This document shows positions 376 to 16,310 of a DNA stretch of 31,837 bases, in pieces. Below the pieces are notes generated by a model. It did not search any database. It was not told the DNA's origin and saw only the letters and a program-made list of their open reading frames with translations. Numbering within the stretch: the first letter of the stretch is position 1; each line of letters starts with the position of its first letter. A program made the position numbers and the translations under genes. The DNA lies in IMG/VR virus record IMGVR_UViG_2869947659_000006. One strand, 5' to 3'. This DNA comes from a virus (Duplodnaviria; Heunggongvirae; Uroviricota; Caudoviricetes).

Positions 376-1053
376 CAAACGTATGGCGCAGAACGTGTGT
401 GAGTTGACCGCGAGGGAGCACGATAGACGTTTTTTCCATCACGGATAAAAATTGAAAATAGCAGTCTGTGAAGAAATTGAACCCATCAAGCGCCATGATC
501 TCTTCGTAAAGCTCTTTACTGATAGGGATGCTTCTGTTTTTCTTCCCCTTCGTTCTGACAAAGGTAATTCGGTATTTGGTCACCTGTGAGCGGGTAAGAT
601 TTACGGCTTCACGCTAGCGTGCGCCTGTGCTTAAGCATATCTTAACTACCAGTGCCAGAATTGGGTCCTGACGTTTGCAATCAGCCAGCAATTCAACAAT
701 CTGCTCATGGGTAAGCCATGCCATCTCTTTTTCTGCGATGGTGAATTTTCGCATGTTCTCCAGTGGGTTCGGATACGACCATTCGCCCAGACGGGATAGT
801 TCGCTAAAAACACTACTTAGATAGCTTTGCTCCAGGTTAATGGTGACCGGGCTTGCTCCTTTCTTCCATTTCTCGCTGAAGTAGATCCCGCCTGTCAGGC
901 GTTTATCTCGATAGTGGGCAAACATTTTAGAGGTGAGATCGGTTGCAAGAGGATTGCCCAGAGCGTCAACCATCAACAGCAATTTGTCATAGACATGCTG
1001 CCCAGCTGTCAGAGATTTACCATGTAGTTTGAACCATAGCTCAACCACGTCTT
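376..1053 (-). pseudogene. int: P2/186-type tyrosine integrase remnant: N-terminal ~60 codons missing, in-frame TAG at 614-616, C-terminus cut by IS911 after ...LTHVLRHTF
   Basis: ORFs 614..1069 and 284..583 are in the same frame. They align to P2/186 Int motifs (ELW..HG, NPL.NMR, ICLSTGAR, TKGKKNR.VPIS, LTHVLRHTF). The TAG sits where homologs have Trp (GAR-W). Confidence 0.85.
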
Positions 1054-1914
1054 TGAGGTGTACTGGCAATAGCGGACACTACCATTTGTTCTTTTTTGAG
1101 CAGCCATCTGATGATATTTTCCCCTGAAGGCTGCCGGGGAGATATTCCCCAGACGAGAGTGACGACGCTGACGATTGTAGAAAATCTCAATGTATTCCCG
1201 TATTACTGAGATGGCTTCATCCCGGTTATTAAAACGATAGTGGCTCAGGCTCTCATTTTTCAGCGTTCCCCAGAAGCTTTCCATCGGAGCGTTGTCGTAA
1301 CAGTTACCTTTACGCGACATTGATGTTTTCAGACCAGACTGCTCCTGTATGACCCGGTAATCGTATGCGCAGTACTGTGAACCTCGATCAGAGTGGTGGA
1401 TTAGCCCGGCAAGTGGGCGCTGGCTCCTGAGCGCCATAAACAGGGCTTTACCTGTCAGCTCTTTTGTCATGCGCTCTCCCATGGCGTAGCCGACAATTTC
1501 GCACGTATAAACATCTTTGATGCCAGCGAGGTACAACCATCCCTCCTGTGTGGCAACATACGTCAGGTCCGCCACCCAGACCTGATTTGGTGCTGTAGGA
1601 GCGAACGTCTGGTTCAGCAGATTTGGCGCAACTGGCAGATTGTGGTTCGGGTTCGTAGTCGCTCTGAACTTGCGTTTCTGCTTACAGCGTAGCCTTAGCT
1701 CCTTACGAAGACGTGCCAGTCGGTCACGACCAACGATGATGCCATTCTCTGCCAGCTCCGTCTGGAGCCGCCGGGTTCCATATGTTTCGCGAGTGCGGAT
1801 ATGTGCCACCTTAATCTCCAGTTTTAGCCGCTCATCACTTTGTTTTCTGTCTGAGGGTTCATGCTGTACCCAGTTGTAATAACCGCTCCTGGATACACCA
1901 AATACCTGACACAT
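1009..1914 (-). CDS. IS3-family transposase OrfB (DDE catalytic part; made as an OrfAB fusion by -1 frameshift). The reading frame runs ~15 codons past the IS end into flanking DNA.
   Basis: The 301-aa ORF contains HHSDRGSQY and NAPMESFWGTLK, which are typical of IS3-family OrfB. Confidence 0.8.
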   Translation of the reverse strand: MCQVFGVSRSGYYNWVQHEPSDRKQSDERLKLEIKVAHIRTRETYGTRRLQTELAENGIIVGRDRLARLRKELRLRCKQKRKFRATTNPNHNLPVAPNLLNQTFAPTAPNQVWVADLTYVATQEGWLYLAGIKDVYTCEIVGYAMGERMTKELTGKALFMALRSQRPLAGLIHHSDRGSQYCAYDYRVIQEQSGLKTSMSRKGNCYDNAPMESFWGTLKNESLSHYRFNNRDEAISVIREYIEIFYNRQRRHSRLGNISPAAFRGKYHQMAAQKRTNGSVRYCQYTSKTWLSYGSNYMVNL

Positions 1915-2487: not shown

Positions 2488-4137
2488 ATGTTAGTCAAGA
2501 AAAATAAAAATTATAGTTTATATTTTTTAATTACAAATAATCAACAGATATCTGATTCTGGTAATTATATAAAAATAGTCCCATCAAGAAGCGATTGGAA
2601 TGATTTTGGATATTTGAGTAGAGTCGAAATATCTATTTTTAATAAAAAAGAGTGTAAGGATATAATTTCACTGAATGGTTATATTGGTTTTTTGAATTCA
2701 GAGGAGGAACGAAATGGAAAAGCAGAACTGATAAGGCGAGTGAAGAAAAAGGAAGAATCTAATTTAAAGGATGAGGGGTTTAATGATTATTTTGTCATGC
2801 TTCAGGATATGAATAATTATCGAAGACTAGTAAGATTTTTTGGGGTGAATGAATCCAAATATATATTAAATTTCATTAATGATGTTGTTTCTAAGAAAAG
2901 TGACGCTAGTGCAGAGAATTTGAGGAAAAAAGCAATCTCTTCTGATATCTTTAATAAATCTTTCATTAGAGAGTCTGAGTCGTATTTTACTTTCAAAAAT
3001 GCAGGAACAGTTCTTTCCGGTATTCAATATGAGGAGTTGGGTAATTTATCACAGCACATCAAGATTAGCTATTCGAATAAAGTTAATGAAGAAGATGTAT
3101 CTTATGTTTTTAATTTTGATCACGAGCATGATTTACCAAAAAGAATTTCCATAATTATAGGCGAGAATGGTGTAGGAAAAAGCCAAACGCTTAGAGAAAT
3201 CGCATTGGCTGCGATTAAAGGAAAGGATAATTTGGTGGCTGTAGTTGATTCTAACGGTGTGAGCATTGAAGAACGAATTCAAATTAGTAGGCTCATTGCT
3301 TTTTCTCCAACAAATGAAAGTAAGTGTTCATTTCCAACCGATAAAAGAATAAAATCATTGATATGGTACAAAAGATTGACTTTAAATCGTGAATCAAAAT
3401 CCAAATTAAACTTGAATGATTTAATAGTGCAACTAGCGAGGAGTAACGACGCTATCGGCTATAATCAAAGGTGGAATATATTTGTTGATGCACTGAGTGT
3501 TCTAAATAGTAACAACGATTTAGTAATCAAATGTGGCGGTGAAAATTCACCATTTGTTAAATTAAATGAGCTTAATTCTCGAGGCGAAGAATCTAGACTA
3601 TCATTATATTCTGAAATTATTCTCTCTGGCGAGCCTTTGAGGCTTATTGAAAATAAATGTTACCCTTTGAGTAGTGGGGAAATATCGTTTATTAAGTTTT
3701 GTGTACAAGTCTGTTTGTATATTGAGAATGGGACTCTTCTATTAATAGATGAGCCAGAAACACATCTCCATCCTTCATTTATTAATAAATTTATGGCATT
3801 GCTTGATAATTTATTAGAAAAGACAGGCTCTTCAGCTATCATAGCAACGCATTCGGTTTATCTTGTTCGGGAGGTTTTTAAGGAGCAAGTGACAATACTC
3901 AGAAGACGAGATGATGGGGTAATTGTTAGCGAAAAACCGAGATTGAGTACTTTTGGGGCGAATATAGGAAATATCTCATATTTTGTTTTCGGTGAGAGTG
4001 AACCAACTCAAATTTTAAATAAAGTAAAAAACAATATAATTGCAAAGAATATGTCTTGGGATGATGTTGAATCTAAATATAGCGAGGACTTATCACTTAA
4101 TGTATTAACTGCGTTGAGAAATGAAATGGGCAATTGA
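2488..4137 (+). CDS. ABC-type/AAA_21-like ATPase (549 aa) with an ~210-aa N-terminal domain of unknown function; candidate defence ATPase (PtuA-like)
   Basis: Walker A GENGVGKS, signature-like LSSGE, Walker B LLLIDEPETHLHP, H-loop IIATHS. Strongly AT-rich (about 18% G+C in a hand-counted 60-nt stretch, versus about 58% in a phage structural gene). Confidence 0.8.
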   Translation: MLVKKNKNYSLYFLITNNQQISDSGNYIKIVPSRSDWNDFGYLSRVEISIFNKKECKDIISLNGYIGFLNSEEERNGKAELIRRVKKKEESNLKDEGFNDYFVMLQDMNNYRRLVRFFGVNESKYILNFINDVVSKKSDASAENLRKKAISSDIFNKSFIRESESYFTFKNAGTVLSGIQYEELGNLSQHIKISYSNKVNEEDVSYVFNFDHEHDLPKRISIIIGENGVGKSQTLREIALAAIKGKDNLVAVVDSNGVSIEERIQISRLIAFSPTNESKCSFPTDKRIKSLIWYKRLTLNRESKSKLNLNDLIVQLARSNDAIGYNQRWNIFVDALSVLNSNNDLVIKCGGENSPFVKLNELNSRGEESRLSLYSEIILSGEPLRLIENKCYPLSSGEISFIKFCVQVCLYIENGTLLLIDEPETHLHPSFINKFMALLDNLLEKTGSSAIIATHSVYLVREVFKEQVTILRRRDDGVIVSEKPRLSTFGANIGNISYFVFGESEPTQILNKVKNNIIAKNMSWDDVESKYSEDLSLNVLTALRNEMGN

Positions 4138-5002
4138 AATGAATAAATTAAAAAGACCTGTTTTTAAAGATTATTCTGCATTTAAAAAACTATCTGCAAA
4201 TAAGAGATTAAAACATCATTCTGTTCTGAATGGACAGGATACATTTATACTTAATGCATATAGATCGTACATAAAGAATAAAGGGTATCTTAATGTCAAT
4301 TCTTGTGGCGTATTGAGTAACAATATTGCTGAAGCTTTGAGATATTATTATAACAATCCCGCAAAGTGTTTATCTATAATTGATGATATAAGAGCAGCTA
4401 ATTCTAACTCTCTATGTCCAATGTGTGGTTCAATGCATAGCGGGACTTTGGATCATGTTTTACCCAAGGAAAACTATCCAGAATTTTCTTTATTCACTAA
4501 GAATTTGGTTCCTGCTTGCAAATGTAATACTTTCAAAAGTACTACTATAGCTAATTCTGCAGGCCATCGGATGCTGCATCCATATTTTGATAATATATTA
4601 AAACAAAGATTAATATGTGCTAATTTTTCTAAATTAGGGCGAACACCTACAATTGATGTAAAAATCATAATTGACCCAATGTCACCAGAATATAACAATG
4701 TTAAGTATCATCTTGATAATGTTGTTATCAAGAATAATATTAAGGGGTATTTGTCTGAACAATGGGAGTCGTTTTACTTATATCCTGAGCTTGTTATTAG
4801 AGGACTGAATAAGAGTCTTTCTACTTATAGCGATGTATATGAGTTGTTGACTCGCGAGTTGTTGCTGTTGGATGAAAAACATAAAGGTAAAAATAATTGG
4901 AATTCGGTTTTTGTAGCTGGGTTAATTCGACCTGATGTGATTAGGTGGATACTCTGTGAATTACATTTAGGTAACAGAAGTCCAGACGGTCGTCTCATAT
5001 GA
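4121..5002 (+). CDS. HNH endonuclease-family protein (293 aa); candidate nuclease partner (PtuB-like). Start could instead be the ATG at 4139.
   Basis: CPMCG...GTLDHVLPKENYP...NLVPACKCN is a CxxC...DH...N...CxCN HNH core. It overlaps the upstream ATPase stop by 17 nt and is AT-rich. Confidence 0.75.
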   Translation: MKWAIEMNKLKRPVFKDYSAFKKLSANKRLKHHSVLNGQDTFILNAYRSYIKNKGYLNVNSCGVLSNNIAEALRYYYNNPAKCLSIIDDIRAANSNSLCPMCGSMHSGTLDHVLPKENYPEFSLFTKNLVPACKCNTFKSTTIANSAGHRMLHPYFDNILKQRLICANFSKLGRTPTIDVKIIIDPMSPEYNNVKYHLDNVVIKNNIKGYLSEQWESFYLYPELVIRGLNKSLSTYSDVYELLTRELLLLDEKHKGKNNWNSVFVAGLIRPDVIRWILCELHLGNRSPDGRLI

Positions 5003-5108: not shown

Positions 5109-6143
5109 TTAAGTAGCTAGTTTATAACTATCAAATTTAACAATGTTCTCACTTACCAATTTATTTATTTCCATCATTCTTTTTTGTAACGGTATTAACT
5201 CGTTACGTACAAACACCAGGCTCGCCTTCTCCACATCCCCAAACCCCCCGACATTATTAGGCATAATCCCCATCATTTGCGGTGGCACACGATGCGCCGC
5301 CATCATGTCATCCCGGCTCACGTTCTTGATGTTCAGAAACTCATCCTTCGCCGCGACTTCTGACAACGGGATGATCTGAAGCCCGTCCTTTTTGCCGTTA
5401 GGCGAGTACATAAACAGATTGCGGAAGTTACCTGGTCCTTTGGCGCTTTTCATCGCATTGCGGAGGTTGTTCACATCCTCCTGGTTTTGCGCGGCATCGG
5501 TCATGTACATGATGAAGCCTGCATGACTGCCGTTAATGTAATACTATCGGCGGAACAGCGTGGCGGACTCGTTGAGCAGAGCTGACGGAATGGCAGAAAG
5601 GTAACCTGGCAGGCCGTAGATCTCTTGGTTGATGTCCGGTTCCATCAGATGAAAGATGCTTCCTTTCGTGAACTGATACGGCTGCGTGGTCATGCCGTAT
5701 TGCACAAACCAGTAGGTATCCAGGTCTAATCCGCGTCGGGTGTATTTTGCCAGAGCAGGCTCAAGAGCGATGACCTCTCCGAACCGGTTTGTGCGTTTCT
5801 CCAGGTAAGCGTTACCAAATACCAGATAATCCTGCACAAAACGTGAAAAAGCCTGCTGGCTGAGCAGCGGGTGAGGGATGTAGGTACTGATCAGAATGTT
5901 GCATTTCACCGCAATTGGTGAACTGTGATGCACGGCGGCGCGGAAGGTGCGCGCCAGTCCGTCAAAACTCACTGGCGGCTCATACCAGCGATCTGTCTGT
6001 ACGCATTCCACATAGTCCAGTAGTTCACGGCGGTCCAGAACCGGAACGGGATCGCCGAAGCTGAATGCTTCGGCTGAAGTCTGGTTTTTATGCTGGGTCT
6101 GTTTCGTCGCCGCAGCGCGGTTCTTCTTACTCTTTCCCATCAA
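5109..6143 (-). pseudogene. Q: Portal protein (P2 gpQ homolog) interrupted by an in-frame TAG at 5544-5546
   Basis: ORFs 5544..6143 and 5109..5510 are in the same frame (435 nt apart). The read-through sequence is ...ATLFRR*YYINGSHAGFIMYMTDAAQ... Confidence 0.85.
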
Positions 6144-13023: not shown

Positions 13024-13417
13024 AGCAGTGCCTTATGTCCGTAATAACCCGGACAAACTGCATCTGTTTGTGGATAACGGTTCGCTGGTTGCCTCCGGGG
13101 CTAGCTCCATGTCATGGGAGTACCGCTACACCCTGAACGTGGTGATTGAAGATTTCAGCGGCGACCAGAATCTGCTGATGGCCCCGGTTTTGCTGTGGCT
13201 GCGGGATAACCAGCCCGATGCGATCAATAACCCGGCGTTACGGGAAAAGCTATTCACCTTTGAGGTGGATATTCTGCGCAACGATGTCTGTGATATCAGC
13301 CTTAACCTGCAACTGACGGAGCGTGTGCTGGTCAGCACTGACGGCAGTGTGTCGAACGTTGAAGCGGTAGCGGAACCTGATGAACCTGAAGAAATGTGGA
13401 CGGTGAAACGTGGCTGA
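12986..13417 (+). CDS. R: Tail completion protein, P2 gpR homolog
   Basis: GTG start after AGGAG; KPQSLRHALNKAV...HLFVDNGS matches the gpR N-terminus. Confidence 0.85.
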   Translation: MNKPQSLRHALNKAVPYVRNNPDKLHLFVDNGSLVASGASSMSWEYRYTLNVVIEDFSGDQNLLMAPVLLWLRDNQPDAINNPALREKLFTFEVDILRNDVCDISLNLQLTERVLVSTDGSVSNVEAVAEPDEPEEMWTVKRG

Positions 13418-13853
13418 ATTGCAGAAGGTGGACGACTGGCTGAGTGCATTATTGGCGAATCTGGAGCCAGCCGCAAGAAGCCGCATGATGCGCCAGCTGG
13501 CGCAGGAACTGCGCCGGACACAGCAGCAGAACATCAGGATGCAGCGCAATCCAGATGGCAGCAGTTATGAGCCGCGCAGGGTAACAGCACGCAGCAAAAA
13601 GGGGCGCATCAAACGTCAGATGTTTACAAAGCTGCGCACCACAAAATACCTGAAAACTGCAGCCAGCGCCGATTCTGCCAGCGTACAGTTTGAAGGTAGG
13701 GTGCAGCGCATTGCCCGTATTCACCATTACGGCTTGAGTGATCGCGTCAGTCGAAAAGGTATTTATACCATCTATGCGAAAAGGCAGTTATTAGGTTTTA
13801 ATGTCCAATCTATTGAGTTAATTGAAAGAATGTTCATTAAAAACCTAACTTGA
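13410..13853 (+). CDS. S: Tail completion/virion morphogenesis protein, P2 gpS homolog
   Basis: 147 aa with RVQRIARIHHYGLSDRVSR; the 3' end becomes AT-rich. Confidence 0.85.
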   Translation: MAELQKVDDWLSALLANLEPAARSRMMRQLAQELRRTQQQNIRMQRNPDGSSYEPRRVTARSKKGRIKRQMFTKLRTTKYLKTAASADSASVQFEGRVQRIARIHHYGLSDRVSRKGIYTIYAKRQLLGFNVQSIELIERMFIKNLT

Positions 13854-13931
13854 TTTTTATTTGTTTTCAATTGAGTGGTAATGCTGCCAACTTACTGATT
13901 TAGTGTATGATGGTGATTTTAAGGTGCTTGC

Positions 13932-14207
13932 GTGGCTTCCATTTCCATCAGATGTCCTTCCTGCTCCGCTACTGAAGGCGTGGTGCGTAACGGCAAAAGC
14001 ACTGCCGGACATCAGCGCTATCTCTGCTCTCATTGCCGTAAAACATGGCAACTACAGTTCACTTACACCGCCTCTCAGCCCGGTACGCACCAGAAAATCA
14101 TTGATATGGCCATGAATGGCGTCGGATGTCGCGCCAGTGCACGCATTATGGGCGTTGGCCTCAACACGGTTTTACGTCACTTAAAAAACTCAGGCCGCAG
14201 TCGGTAA
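13932..14207 (+). CDS. insA: IS1 InsA
   Basis: 91 aa, [23 protein letters not shown]... Confidence 0.9.
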
Positions 14208-14629
14208 CCTCGCGCATACAACCGGGCAGTGATGTGATTGTCTGCGCTGAAATGGACGAACAGTGGGGCTACGTCGGTGCTAAATCACGTCAGCGCTGGC
14301 TGTTTTACGCGTATGACAGGATACGGAGGACGGTTGTGGCGCACGTCTTCGGTGAACGCACTCTGGCCACACTGGAGCGTCTTCTGAGCCTGCTGTCGGC
14401 CTTTGAGGTCGTGGTATGGATGACGGATGGCTGGCCGCTGTATGAATCACGCCTGAAGGGAAAGCTGCACGTTATCAGCAAGCGTTACACTCAGCGCATT
14501 GAGCGACATAATCTGAATCTGAGACAACATCTGGCAAGGCTGGGACGGAAGTCACTGTCGTTCTCAAAATCGGTGGAGCTGCATGACAAGGTCATCGGGC
14601 ATTATCTGAACATAAAACACTATCAGTAA
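14126..14629 (+). CDS. insB: IS1 InsB (made as an InsAB' fusion by -1 frameshift at the A6C motif near 14186)
   Basis: 167-aa ORF overlapping insA; TTAAAAAACTC slippery motif. Confidence 0.85.
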
Positions 14630-14639
14630 GTTGGAGTCA

Positions 14640-15653
14640 TTACCCAATTGAGTTAGATATAGATAGGAATGTGTCCCCTATTTCTATAGATAGTTGTTTA
14701 ATTAAATTCATGAAAATTAAATTCTCTTCGTTGCAGTCATTTTTCAGTAGACAGCACGTTGATTGAGTAAGACTAAGGGCTGTAGCATGTGCAGGGTCAA
14801 CTAATCCGAAATTACTTGGACCTATGTTGATGACGTTCTTCAGGTGATGGGGTAGTGACAAGCTATTAGTGATTGTTTTTATATTTACATGGATGTTTTG
14901 GCATGCCCATTTAAAATATGGGCGCATGTGATCTAATTTAACTTCTTTTTCAATTGATTTAAAGCTAGCTTTGTGTTTCTTATCAGTTAAAAATGGTGTG
15001 GCCCAACCATATTGCGAATCAAAACTTCTGCCATATGTTTTAATGGCTTTATCGAACAAGTCTGTTAATTCTCTGGCCTCTTCATTACTGGGCCCTTTCT
15101 CTTGAAGCCTGCTTTCATACTTTTTATGTGACATCATTAGATAATAGCTATCATAAATTTCATGTGCTAAAAATATTTCTGAGCATTTAGGACCATGCTT
15201 GTTGATGAAATGAAGTGTTACATTTGTTTCATGCAGTGCTCTCCATCTTGCATGGGCTGCGTCAGGAAATCCATTTTTTAATAGACATAAAATCTCGTTA
15301 GAAATTGCACATGCCTTTGCGTGTAATCTAATTAGTAATTGCAAATGGTTGTTTGTGTCGGTGTCTTTATCTTGTTGTAAGCTTGTACTATATTTAGAAC
15401 CTTGATTAATACATAACTCTAACAACAACTCTAATAATCCAAAACCATCTCTCCAAATATTAATATGTCTTTTTATGAAATTTTGATGTTCTTGTTCATT
15501 TTGGGCCAGTAATTCTGCTTTTTTTTCTTTAAATTCCGACATGTATTCATTTGCTTTGAAGTCTATGAACTCCCAGTATAGCTTTTCAAAATTTTCTCTG
15601 GTTGCATCGGGAAGACTGTTTTTATTTGAGCTTAACCATTCTTTAAAATCCAT
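14640..15653 (-). CDS. AT-rich cargo protein of unknown function (337 aa) at the P2 S/V (orf30) position; 3' end altered by IS1
   Basis: About 38% G+C in a hand-counted 60-nt stretch. Convergent with S. A possible HEPN-like R-x4-H motif (RWRALH) is a weak hint only. Confidence 0.7.
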   Translation of the reverse strand: MDFKEWLSSNKNSLPDATRENFEKLYWEFIDFKANEYMSEFKEKKAELLAQNEQEHQNFIKRHINIWRDGFGLLELLLELCINQGSKYSTSLQQDKDTDTNNHLQLLIRLHAKACAISNEILCLLKNGFPDAAHARWRALHETNVTLHFINKHGPKCSEIFLAHEIYDSYYLMMSHKKYESRLQEKGPSNEEARELTDLFDKAIKTYGRSFDSQYGWATPFLTDKKHKASFKSIEKEVKLDHMRPYFKWACQNIHVNIKTITNSLSLPHHLKNVINIGPSNFGLVDPAHATALSLTQSTCCLLKNDCNEENLIFMNLIKQLSIEIGDTFLSISNSIG

Positions 15654-15667
15654 TGTGTTCCCCTATT

Positions 15668-15685
15668 TGTACCATGTTTTATACA
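15668..15685. promoter_or_regulatory. Ogr-type TGT-N12-ACA dyad in the 78-bp divergent region between the cargo gene and V
   Basis: TGTaccatgttttatACA, centred about 56 bp upstream of the V start codon. Confidence 0.35.
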
Positions 15686-15731
15686 ACGAACTGTAAGCGA
15701 TTATATGGTTTTTTTCATTCATATTTAATAT

Positions 15732-16310
15732 ATGGACAAAAATCTAACAGAAATCATGCGCCTTATCACCAACCTGATCCGCACTGGGGTAGTCACCGAA
15801 GTGGACAGGACAAACTGGCTTTGCCGGGTGAAAACGGGCGACCTTGAAACCAACTGGATCAGCTGGCTGACGCTGCGTGCCGGGAATGCCCGGACATGGT
15901 GGCGACCATCGGAAGGTGAGCAGGTGGTGCTGCTGAGTATGGGCGGTAATCTGGAAACAGCTTTTGCGCTGCCCGCCATCTATTCGAATCAGTTCGCACC
16001 ACCGTCGACGTCGGCGGACGCCTGCGTGACAGAACATCCTGACGGTGGCTGGTTTGAATACGAACCTGCCACCGGGCGCTGGTATGTCAGGGGCATCAAA
16101 TCCATGGTCATTGAGGCTGCCGATAACATCACCCTGAAAACCAGTGAGTTTGTGCTGGAGGCTGAGTGCACGCGTATTAACAGCGAAGTGGTGGTCAATG
16201 GTGGCGTTACTCAGGGCGGCGGAGCGATGAGTTCTAACGGGATCGTGGTTGATGCGCATCAGCATACTGGCGTCCTGAAAGGCGGCGATACAACCGGAGG
16301 CCCGGTATGA
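15732..16310 (+). CDS. V: Baseplate spike protein, P2 gpV homolog
   Basis: 192 aa; matches P2 V (TNWISWLTLRAGNARTWW.PSEGEQV). Confidence 0.9.
   Translation: MDKNLTEIMRLITNLIRTGVVTEVDRTNWLCRVKTGDLETNWISWLTLRAGNARTWWRPSEGEQVVLLSMGGNLETAFALPAIYSNQFAPPSTSADACVTEHPDGGWFEYEPATGRWYVRGIKSMVIEAADNITLKTSEFVLEAECTRINSEVVVNGGVTQGGGAMSSNGIVVDAHQHTGVLKGGDTTGGPV

What the first reader, a model, noticed from the sequence alone, without database searches (positions are those of the whole stretch)
14640..15653. Orphan AT-rich 337-aa gene inserted between tail genes S and V (second cargo hotspot), function unknown
P2-like phages have S directly followed by V, apart from a small accessory ORF slot. Here a minus-strand, low-GC gene sits convergent to S and divergent from V. 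I recognise no motif confidently. A single R-x4-H (RWRALH) could indicate a HEPN-type RNase as seen in Abi-like toxins, but that is a weak hint. The position and composition fit a single-gene abortive-infection or defence protein.
Basis: inference. Interest (0 to 1): 0.6.

Follow-up and report, generated by a model that had tools for sequence, protein, structure and literature searches.

The report
DUF5677 cargo gene in P2 prophage
A low-GC gene wedged between two tail genes of a decaying P2-like prophage (probably in Shigella boydii) encodes a widespread protein of unknown function (DUF5677); it sits in a slot where related phages carry single-gene anti-phage proteins, so it is a credible but untested new defence candidate, and an IS1 element has clipped its last three codons.

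Summary
The ORF is real: 14640-15653, minus strand, 337 aa, 33.8% GC against about 50-57% in the flanks. IS1 separates S from the ORF and supplies its stop codon, so the ancestral 339-aa protein lost 3 poorly conserved C-terminal residues.

The gene is not an orphan. It is a full-length member of Pfam DUF5677 (E 2e-28). That family has more than 3700 50%-identity clusters across bacteria and archaea.

The position is the slot that holds the non-essential orf30 in P2. The P2 Orf30 protein is unrelated. In other E. coli P2-like prophages this slot is empty or holds one minus-strand gene: AbiU-like AIPR, FRG (PDC-S15), DUF2971 (PDC-S31), TIR or unknowns.

DUF5677 homologues are solitary cargo in P2-like and lambdoid prophages, a satellite-like island and integrase islands. 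In several genomes they sit inside or next to type I restriction-modification operons.

The RWRxLHE motif is invariant, but the HEPN criteria are mostly not met. A confident all-helical model has no significant structural relative.

Best reading: a stand-alone anti-phage effector with an unknown mechanism, unproven. One distant homologue was not among the active genes in an Enterococcus screen.

The parts
14640..15653 (-). DUF5677 gene as it now reads (337 aa). Native coding sequence is 14645-15653. The last sense codon (14643-14645) is a hybrid and the stop codon (14640-14642) is IS1 sequence.
   Evidence: ORF list; sequence; Pfam PF18928 E 2.1e-28; 335/336 identity to the 339-aa IS1-free allele; exact match to WP_073832208.1 from Shigella boydii.
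14856..15338 (-). Region matching the Pfam DUF5677 model (aa 106-266), the conserved core.
   Evidence: The invariant columns R109, H111, C115, E120, D131, R136, W137, R138, H141, E142, H242, K248, H255 and K259 fall here.
15231..15248 (-). Codons for RWRALH (aa 136-141), part of the family-invariant RWRxLHE motif.
   Evidence: Sequence read directly; invariance in 42 diverse homologues; the motif was also usable as a search pattern across phyla.
13877..14644 (+). IS1 element, 768 bp, with insA (13932-14207), insB (14126-14629) and terminal inverted repeats (13877-13899 and 14622-14644).
   Evidence: Pfam HTH_Tnp_IS1, Zn_ribbon_InsA and DDE_Tnp_IS1; ends read. It is absent from otherwise 97-99.8% identical E. 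coli loci.
13868..13876 (.). Left copy of the 9-bp IS1 target-site duplication CAATTGAGT.
14645..14653 (.). Right copy of the 9-bp IS1 target-site duplication CAATTGAGT.
13857..13868 (-). Orphaned original 3' end of the gene (codons E-N-K-stop), displaced by IS1. It ends 3 nt from the S stop codon.
   Evidence: Reading frame continued across the excised IS1. It matches the 339-aa allele annotated in NZ_CP049845.
15660..15705 (-). Putative own expression signals: a perfect -10 TATAAT (15705-15700) and Shine-Dalgarno AGGGG (15664-15660) upstream of the ATG at 15653.
   Evidence: Consensus scan by script. Inferred only; the standard scan did not list it because the -35 is weak.
15668..15685 (+). 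TGT-N12-ACA dyad, the presumed late-activator (Ogr-type) site of promoter pV. It is centred about 55 nt upstream of the V start codon and marks the right border of the cargo slot.
   Evidence: Sequence. The P2 record annotates an activator site upstream of V and a transcription start at the first base of V. An equivalent dyad follows the S stop directly in an empty slot.
13410..13853 (+). Tail-completion gene S, the left anchor of the slot.
   Evidence: Pfam Phage_tail_S E 1.3e-37.
15732..16310 (+). Baseplate spike gene V, the right anchor of the slot.
   Evidence: Pfam Phage_base_V plus Apex.

Best explanation
The gene is horizontally acquired, single-gene cargo in the P2 'orf30' slot, between the stop codon of S and the activator site of late promoter pV. 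It is transcribed against the tail operons, probably from its own promoter, so it can be expressed in the lysogen as P2's other lysogenic-conversion genes are.

It encodes a soluble, all-helical protein of about 340 aa from the widespread DUF5677 family. The protein has an enzyme-like set of invariant polar residues: R109, H111, C115, E120, D131, RWRxLHE 136-142, H242, K248, H255, K259 and a GxSNxG loop.

The most likely role is a stand-alone anti-phage (abortive-infection or exclusion) effector that protects the lysogen against other phages. I infer that it stays latent until infection and then acts on a nucleic acid or nucleotide substrate through the RWRxLHE-centred site.

Shown: the anatomy, the family membership, the conservation and the genomic associations. 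Inferred: expression, the defence role and any catalytic activity.

The IS1 insertion removed only three poorly conserved C-terminal residues, so this copy is probably still functional, although the prophage around it is defective.
For: 1. Slot: P2 itself has the non-essential minus-strand orf30 between S and V, with the pV activator site and the V-operon start just beyond it. An empty slot shows the S stop codon, 5 nt, the dyad, then V.
2. The slot is variable. 1042 of 5426 complete E. coli genomes match this S-V query and only 4 carry DUF5677. In the sampled listing most slots are empty; others carry one gene. The occupied slots inspected held a single minus-strand gene, apart from an IS1-disrupted TIR locus.
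3. Alternative cargos in the slot match defence models: AIPR to PADLOC AbiU (3.7e-28), FRG to PDC-S15 (8.5e-32), DUF2971 to PDC-S31 (3e-24), and a TIR fragment weakly to SpbK/ThsB.
4. Homologues are solitary cargo in other mobile elements:
   - the S-V slot in Salmonella at 54% identity, and probably Pantoea and Winslowiella (two Phage_tail_S neighbours);
   - an integrase/AlpA/D5-primase island, once beside a PARIS-like ATPase;
   - a lambdoid prophage;
   - an integrase island with a deaminase and a NACHT protein;
   - beside YoeB/YefM, MtlR and FRG genes.
5. No conserved partner gene was found in 51 loci. The only recurrent neighbours are type I R-M genes: hsdM in 6 loci and hsdR in 3. One arrangement is hsdM-hsdS-DUF5677-hsdR, co-directional and overlapping.
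6. Neighbours include OLD/AriA/GajA-type ATPases, Mrr, DUF2971 and transposases.
7. The distribution is patchy across many bacterial phyla and archaea at 30-55% identity.
8. Constraint is strong: 46 invariant columns in 42 sequences, and dN/dS of 0.04-0.24 among close alleles.
9. GC is 0.338, the protein has no transmembrane segment, and a -10 and Shine-Dalgarno sequence are present.
Against: - There is no experimental evidence for any DUF5677 protein.
- The only test found was a Bacillota DUF5677 ORF expressed in E. faecalis against six phages. It was not among the five active candidates.
- The protein has no hit in PADLOC v2 or NCBIfam.
- No solved structure or viral model resembles the confident AF2 model, so the mechanism is a guess.
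- The neighbourhood associations were not compared with a background rate.
- Some homologues are isolated among housekeeping genes.
- This copy is IS1-clipped and sits in a prophage with a nonsense codon in the portal gene.
Confidence: 0.55

Rival explanations
1. One reading: a HEPN-type, metal-independent RNase toxin in which R136 and H141 of RWRALH form the catalytic site, acting as an Abi protein.
For: - R136-x4-H141 is invariant across 42 diverse homologues.
- The protein is all-helical.
- Solitary helical Abi proteins and R-M-linked genes are often HEPN (Anantharaman 2013), and DUF5677 occurs within type I R-M operons.
Against: - The residue after R is an invariant W, not N/D/H.
- The motif lies 7-12 residues into helix 130-153, not at the C-terminal end of helix 3 or in its loop.
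- No Ex3[K/R] motif is seen in the preceding helices.
- No HEPN Pfam family matches any of 42 members at E<=10.
- The PDB profile search gave no hit.
- Many other invariant His, Cys, Glu and Lys residues suggest a larger, different active site.
Confidence: 0.12
2. A non-defence accessory gene. Examples: a counter-defence or anti-restriction factor used by the phage, a regulator, or a host-fitness or virulence 'moron' that shares the slot with defence genes only because the slot tolerates insertions.
For: - P2 Orf30, DUF6216 and a 250-aa hypothetical protein in the same slot have no defence match.
- Some homologues are lone genes among housekeeping genes.
- There is one negative phage-challenge result for a distant homologue.
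- A machine-learning paper on Salmonella clinical severity mentions the domain among its features (I did not read it in detail).
Against: - Placement co-directionally between hsdS and hsdR is hard to reconcile with an anti-restriction role.
- The opposite-strand, own-promoter layout (inferred) suits expression in the lysogen rather than early in infection.
- Occurrence across phyla including archaea and Dehalococcoidia argues against a host-specific virulence function.
- Neighbours are repeatedly defence ATPases, toxin-antitoxin modules and mobile-element genes.
Confidence: 0.25
3. In this particular window the gene is a dead remnant. IS1 clipped its 3' end and replaced whatever lay 3' of the gene, and the prophage is decaying, so whatever the family does, this copy does nothing.
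For: - IS1 lies inside the last four codons.
- The portal gene has an in-frame stop at codon 200.
- An IS3-family transposase and an integrase fragment lie at the left end of the window.
- No complete E. coli genome shares this IS1 junction.
Against: - Only 3 residues are lost (ENK replaced by G), beyond the last conserved columns G326, F329 and L330, in a region that varies in length across the family.
- The rest of the frame is intact, with one substitution relative to the E. coli allele.
- The promoter side is untouched.
- The exact 337-aa protein is seen on 10 contigs from Shigella boydii, so the allele persists.
Confidence: 0.12

Closest known systems
Bacteriophage P2 orf30 (non-essential gene between S and V)
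   Same: The same slot, strand and layout: a single gene convergent with S and divergent from V, lying between the S stop codon and the pV activator site.
   Different: No sequence relationship. A tblastn of the window protein against 50,697 phage records found only Bacillus phage SPR at 27% identity. P2 Orf30 is 261 aa and has no PADLOC match.
P2 lysogenic-conversion defence genes old, tin and fun(Z), and the cargo of the two described P2 hotspots (Rousset 2022; Vassallo 2022)
   Same: Low-GC accessory cargo between conserved phage genes. The cargo is swapped between related prophages and is often a single gene active against other phages.
   Different: A different locus. The S-V slot is not one of the hotspots named in those studies. 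[quoted passage not shown] No phenotype is known for DUF5677.
Single-gene Abi or defence candidates found in the same slot (AIPR/AbiU-like, FRG/PDC-S15, DUF2971/PDC-S31, TIR)
   Same: The AIPR, FRG and DUF2971 genes have the same position and orientation; the TIR fragment is in the slot on the opposite strand. All are of comparable size (about 180-570 aa) and stand alone. FRG and DUF2971 genes also neighbour DUF5677 in other genomes.
   Different: No detectable homology to DUF5677, which matches no PADLOC model.
HEPN-superfamily Abi RNases (AbiD/F, AbiV, AbiU2 and others; Anantharaman et al. 2013)
   Same: Helical, solitary, associated with mobile elements and R-M systems, with a conserved R-x4-H spacing.
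   Different: The residue after R is W. The motif sits inside a helix rather than at the end of helix 3. There is no HEPN profile hit, and the structural similarity is not specific.
PrrC/RloC-type restriction-linked latent nucleases
   Same: In some genomes DUF5677 sits between hsdS and hsdR in a co-directional type I R-M operon. From my own knowledge, this is where prrC sits in the prr locus.
   Different: DUF5677 has no ATPase domain (Pfam finds only DUF5677). Most family members, including this one, are not R-M linked. No anticodon-nuclease activity is known.

Membership tests
Pfam DUF5677 (PF18928) | Match to the family HMM above the gathering score (27.1 bits). | tested here: met
   99.9 bits, E 2.1e-28, model positions 3-160 of 166. 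All 42 aligned homologues also match. RefSeq annotates the IS1-free allele as a DUF5677 domain-containing protein.
HEPN superfamily | Conserved R-x4-6-H motif. | tested here: met
   R136 and H141 are invariant in 42 sequences. The definition comes from PMC3710099.
HEPN superfamily | Polar residue (N, D or H) immediately after the motif arginine. | tested here: not met
   W137 is invariant.
HEPN superfamily | Motif located at the end of core helix 3 and the start of the loop to helix 4, with the His exposed. | tested here: not met
   In the AF2 model (pLDDT 88.5) residues 136-141 lie 7-12 residues into helix 130-153.
HEPN superfamily | Upstream conserved acidic residue, typically in an Ex3[K/R] motif in helix 2. 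| tested here: inconclusive
   Invariant E75 and E120 exist, but neither is followed by K or R at position +4. Spatial proximity to the motif could not be examined.
HEPN superfamily | Profile or structural similarity to an established HEPN family. | tested here: inconclusive
HEPN superfamily | Metal-independent RNase activity. | not testable with these tools
   Needs biochemistry.
Known or candidate defence systems (PADLOC-DB v2.0.0) | Match to any defence-protein HMM. | tested here: not met
   0 families at E<=1.
P2-type prophage hotspot cargo (lysogenic-conversion or defence 'moron') | Lies between two conserved phage genes at a site whose content varies among related prophages. | tested here: met
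   The slot is empty or holds DUF5677, AIPR, FRG, DUF2971, DUF6216, TIR or hypothetical genes between 90-99% identical S and V genes.
P2-type prophage hotspot cargo (lysogenic-conversion or defence 'moron') | Deviant base composition and its own transcription unit, independent of the late operons. | tested here: met
   GC 0.338 against 0.50-0.57. The gene is on the opposite strand to both tail operons, with a candidate -10 and Shine-Dalgarno sequence. Promoter activity itself is inferred.
P2-type prophage hotspot cargo (lysogenic-conversion or defence 'moron') | Confers resistance to other phages. | not testable with these tools
   The only published test of a DUF5677 gene (Bacillota, in E. 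faecalis) was not among the positives.
P2 Orf30 protein family | Sequence homology to P2 Orf30. | tested here: not met
   A tblastn against all phage records, which include P2, returned only Bacillus phage SPR. P2 orf30 encodes 261 aa.
PrrC/RloC-like restriction-linked effectors | Gene embedded in a type I R-M operon. | tested here: not met
   Not met for this copy, which is in a prophage tail region. It is met for distant homologues from about 6 genomes among the 51 loci examined: L066, L067 and L093 are embedded in the operon; L051, L083, L087 and L104 have an hsd gene nearby.
PrrC/RloC-like restriction-linked effectors | N-terminal ABC/P-loop ATPase regulatory domain. | tested here: not met
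   Pfam finds only DUF5677 in this protein and in longer homologues.
   It is absent from the otherwise near-identical E. coli loci.

The most novel reading that the evidence does not exclude
DUF5677 founds a new family of single-protein anti-phage effectors. It has a helical fold not previously described and a new catalytic centre (RWRxLHE plus a His/Cys/Glu/Lys cluster). It is carried as swappable cargo by prophages and satellites, and in some lineages it is wired into type I R-M operons as a PrrC-like back-up. The S-V (orf30) slot would then be a third, so far unexploited, single-gene defence hotspot of P2-like phages.
Probability: 0.4. Interest if true: 0.65.

Novelty: new variant of a known kind. 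Interest (0 to 1): 0.5.

Why it matters
If DUF5677 is a defence effector, three things follow:
- A very widespread family would be added to the catalogue of single-gene immunity proteins. It has thousands of clusters in bacteria and archaea, is absent from PADLOC v2, and has no characterisation in the searchable literature.
- Its fold has no solved relative, so the mechanism would probably be new.
- The S-V slot of P2-like phages would be marked as an easily mined anchor-flanked hotspot. The slot holds one gene in a fixed orientation between two highly conserved genes, and several of its cargos are still unknown (P2 Orf30, DUF6216, a 250-aa protein).

If it is not a defence gene, it is an ordinary prophage accessory gene of unknown function.

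Tried and rejected
- PADLOC and NCBIfam scans of the protein gave no hit.
- A profile search of PDB sequences with a 42-sequence alignment gave no hit at E<=10.
- A Pfam scan of all 42 members at E<=10, looking for weak HEPN or Abi hits, returned only DUF5677 plus scattered noise.
- An exhaustive profile search showed the family is large, but only the 150 strongest hits are listed, so no bridge to other families could be seen.
- Longer homologues and two apparent fusions (840 and 671 aa, with hydrophobic N-terminal regions) contain no other Pfam domain.
- I looked for a conserved partner gene by all-against-all BLAST of neighbours in 51 loci. None was found, so a two-gene system was rejected.
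- Homology to P2 Orf30 was rejected.
- The standard promoter and terminator scan was uninformative.
- dN/dS among close alleles rests on 2-7 substitutions per pair and is weak.
- The supplements of the one paper that tested a DUF5677 gene are not held.
I could not check whether the invariant residues cluster, or superpose them on a HEPN site.
Full report
**1. What is there**

The ORF exists exactly where stated: 14640..15653, minus strand, 337 aa. Its GC content is 0.338. S has 0.498, V has 0.565 and the whole window has 0.508. At that composition a stop-free run of 337 codons has a chance probability of roughly 1e-11 (my estimate), and the protein has hundreds of homologues. It is a real gene. 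Upstream lies S (13410-13853, Phage_tail_S, E 1e-37) and downstream lies V (15732-16310, Phage_base_V plus Apex).

**2.

A complete IS1 lies between S and the ORF, at 13877-14644. It is 768 bp and carries InsA at 13932-14207 and InsB at 14126-14629. It is flanked by a perfect 9-bp duplication, CAATTGAGT, at 13868-13876 and 14645-14653.

The ORF's stop codon (14640-14642) and two bases of its last sense codon are IS1 sequence. Reading the frame across the excised element gives ...ISNSIENK-stop, ending 3 nt from the S stop codon.

Four complete E. coli genomes carry the same S-gene-V locus without IS1. RefSeq annotates a 339-aa 'DUF5677 domain-containing protein' there, 335/336 identical to the window protein. 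IS1 therefore replaced ENK with G. These positions lie beyond the last conserved columns of the family and in a region of variable length, so the protein is probably unimpaired.

The exact 337-aa sequence is WP_073832208.1 from Shigella boydii, seen on 10 contigs. The 339-aa form is common in Salmonella and E. coli.

**3. The slot**

The P2 reference genome has the non-essential, minus-strand orf30 (261 aa) between S and V. This is followed by the annotated pV activator-binding site and a V-operon transcription start at the first base of V.

The window keeps a TGT-N12-ACA dyad at 15668-15685, centred about 55 nt upstream of the V start codon. In an E. coli prophage with an empty slot, the S stop codon is followed after 5 nt by an equivalent dyad and then V. 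Cargo therefore sits precisely between the S stop codon and the late-promoter activator site.

P2 Orf30 is not homologous to the window protein. A tblastn against 50,697 phage records found only Bacillus phage SPR, at 27% identity.

Of 5426 complete E. coli genomes, 1042 match this S-V query and only four carry DUF5677. In the sampled listing most slots are empty and others hold one gene. The other occupied slots I inspected hold:
- AIPR family, which matches PADLOC AbiU at 3.7e-28.
- FRG domain, which matches PDC-S15 at 8.5e-32.
- DUF2971, which matches PDC-S31 at 3e-24.
- DUF6216.
- A 250-aa hypothetical protein.
- An IS1-disrupted TIR gene on the plus strand, with weak SpbK/ThsB-like matches.

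All but the TIR gene are single minus-strand genes. The slot behaves as a small single-gene hotspot in which several alternative cargos are known or candidate defence proteins.

The studies that defined the P2 hotspots describe the old/tin locus, the Z/fun locus and a tail-to-cI locus, not S-V. [quoted passage not shown]

**4. The protein**

Pfam assigns DUF5677 (PF18928) at E 2.1e-28 over aa 106-266. PHROG 27456, of unknown function, matches over nearly the full length. PADLOC and NCBIfam give nothing.

The family is large:
- 275 hits in the word-indexed search, nearly all about 340 aa.
- 3768 50%-identity cluster representatives in the exhaustive profile search.
- Members span Proteobacteria, Bacteroidota, Chloroflexota, Planctomycetota, Nitrospirota, Thermotogota, the candidate phyla radiation (Uhrbacteria), Methanosarcina and Halobacteriota.

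An alignment of 42 diverse members has 58% mean column identity and 46 invariant columns. These include R109, H111, C115, E120, D131, R136-W137-R138, H141-E142, Y215, W217, E235, H242, Y246, K248, H255, K259 and a G278-x-S280-N-x-G283...P287 loop. This looks like an enzyme or a tight ligand-binding site.

The protein has no transmembrane segment. AlphaFold2 with this alignment gives a confident all-helical model of 15 helices (pLDDT 88.5, pTM 0.83).

**5. The HEPN hypothesis**

The R-x4-H spacing is real and invariant. Against the published definition (PMC3710099) it otherwise fits poorly:
- The residue after R is an invariant tryptophan, not N/D/H.
- The motif lies inside helix 130-153 of the model, not at the end of helix 3 or in its loop.
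- No Ex3[K/R] motif is evident.
- No HEPN Pfam model hits any of the 42 members, even at E<=10.

I could not obtain model coordinates, so a residue-level superposition was not possible. I conclude that HEPN membership is not supported. A nuclease-type activity is not excluded.

**6. Genomic context of the family**

Exact-sequence look-ups show homologues as solitary cargo in:
- The same S-V slot of Salmonella P2-like prophages, at 54% identity.
- The cargo end of an integrase/AlpA/D5-primase satellite-like island in Enterobacter, followed by a 777-aa SEC-C protein and, in one strain, a PARIS-like AAA_15/AAA_21 gene pair.
- A Klebsiella lambdoid prophage, between the replication gene P and DinI.
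- A Providencia integrase island, next to a 545-aa cytidine deaminase and a 2147-aa NACHT protein.
- A Kushneria islet with YefM/YoeB, MtlR and an FRG protein.
- Isolated positions among housekeeping genes in Shewanella and Photobacterium.

I also examined 51 loci from different species that had full 10-kb flanks. An all-against-all BLAST of neighbours within about 5 kb finds no conserved partner. The only recurrent neighbours are type I R-M genes, confirmed by Pfam:
- hsdM in six loci and hsdR in three.
- One Dehalococcoidia genome has two copies of a co-directional, overlapping hsdM-hsdS-DUF5677-hsdR operon.
- Fibrella has a 923-aa ORF (possibly hsdR; not scanned), then DUF5677, hsdS, a Schlafen/AlbA2 gene and hsdM.

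From my own knowledge, this is the position that prrC occupies in the prr locus. Among 109 immediate neighbours the commonest families are AAA_21 and AAA_15 ATPases (which hit the AriA, Old, GajA and HEC-01 models), transposases, Mrr, DUF2971 and Phage_tail_S. I did not compute a background rate, so this is qualitative guilt by association.

**7. Expression and state of this copy**

On the minus strand there is a perfect TATAAT at 15705-15700 and an AGGGG Shine-Dalgarno sequence 6 nt before the ATG. Transcription is inferred, not shown.

Among four near-identical alleles dN/dS is 0.04-0.24, but this rests on only 2-7 substitutions per pair.

The surrounding prophage is defective. The portal gene has an in-frame stop at codon 200, and an IS3-family transposase and an integrase fragment lie at the left end of the window.

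**8. Interpretation**

The best-supported reading is a stand-alone anti-phage effector carried as lysogenic-conversion cargo (confidence about 0.55). The mechanism is unknown. I favour a latent enzyme acting on nucleic acid or nucleotides through the RWRxLHE-centred cluster, but that step is inference.

The main counter-evidence is the lack of any positive experiment. A Bacillota DUF5677 ORF was chosen for its association with serine recombinases and expressed in E. faecalis against six phages. It was not among the five active genes. A narrow phage panel and a distant homologue make that a weak negative.

The rivals are:
- A true HEPN RNase (0.12).
- A non-defence or counter-defence accessory function (0.25).
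- Inactivity of this particular copy (0.12).

**9. Novelty and score**

Low-GC cargo between S and V has been known since the P2 genome annotation (orf30), and the family already has a Pfam name. Three points appear not to be described in the literature I could search:
- The S-V slot acts as a single-gene hotspot holding defence-like genes.
- DUF5677 is a recurrent, solitary cargo gene of mobile elements that is sometimes embedded in R-M operons.
- Its confidently predicted fold has no solved relative.

I rate it a new variant of a known kind, namely prophage-borne single-gene defence candidates, with interest 0.5.

Noticed in passing
window 2488-5002 (+): The classic P2 hotspot next to the portal gene holds a low-GC two-gene cassette: a 549-aa AAA_21/AAA_15 ATPase (2488-4137) and a 293-aa partner (4121-5002). 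They match the PADLOC candidate system PDC-M01 A and B (E 3e-55 and 1e-33).
   Followed up: partly
window 5109-6143 (-), stop codon at 5544-5546: The portal gene Q has an in-frame premature stop at codon 200 (...LFRR*YYING...), so this P2-like prophage is probably defective.
   Followed up: yes
window 614-1914 (-): An IS3-family (rve) transposase ORF (1009-1914) lies next to a fragment with only the N-terminal domain of a phage integrase (614-1069). This is further insertion-sequence damage at the prophage end, consistent with a Shigella host.
   Followed up: partly
L002 2760-3457; L003 2991-3688; hit H10 (E. coli P2-like prophages): IS1 has inserted independently into the S-V slot in several other strains that carry different cargo (a TIR gene, a 250-aa hypothetical protein). 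The low-GC cargo seems to be a recurrent IS1 target.
   Followed up: partly
window 14646-15653 compared with L106 and L107: The cargo gene is about 99.4% identical between strains whose whole S-to-V match is only 96.9-97.6% identical. By subtraction the flanks are about 95% identical. This suggests recent cassette exchange between diverged P2-like phages.
   Followed up: partly
L007, L009, L010, L011 9194-11533 (Enterobacter satellite-like island): In the integrase/AlpA/D5-primase island, the DUF5677 gene is always followed on the same strand by a 777-779-aa protein whose only Pfam hit is a SEC-C motif. This may be a lineage-specific partner or a separate cargo gene.
   Followed up: no
L066 7788-9954 and L067 8299-9954 (Dehalococcoidia MAG): The ORF upstream of DUF5677 in the type I R-M operon combines an NTP_transf_2 (minimal nucleotidyltransferase) hit with an HsdS specificity domain. 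This is either a real fusion or two genes merged by my simple ORF calling. The same MAG carries two near-identical copies of the whole operon.
   Followed up: no
P0135-P0267 (about 410-430-aa homologues); P0147 and P0175: A large subfamily has an extra N-terminal extension of about 80-100 aa with no Pfam match. Two proteins (840 and 671 aa) carry long N-terminal regions with hydrophobic, transmembrane-like stretches.
   Followed up: partly
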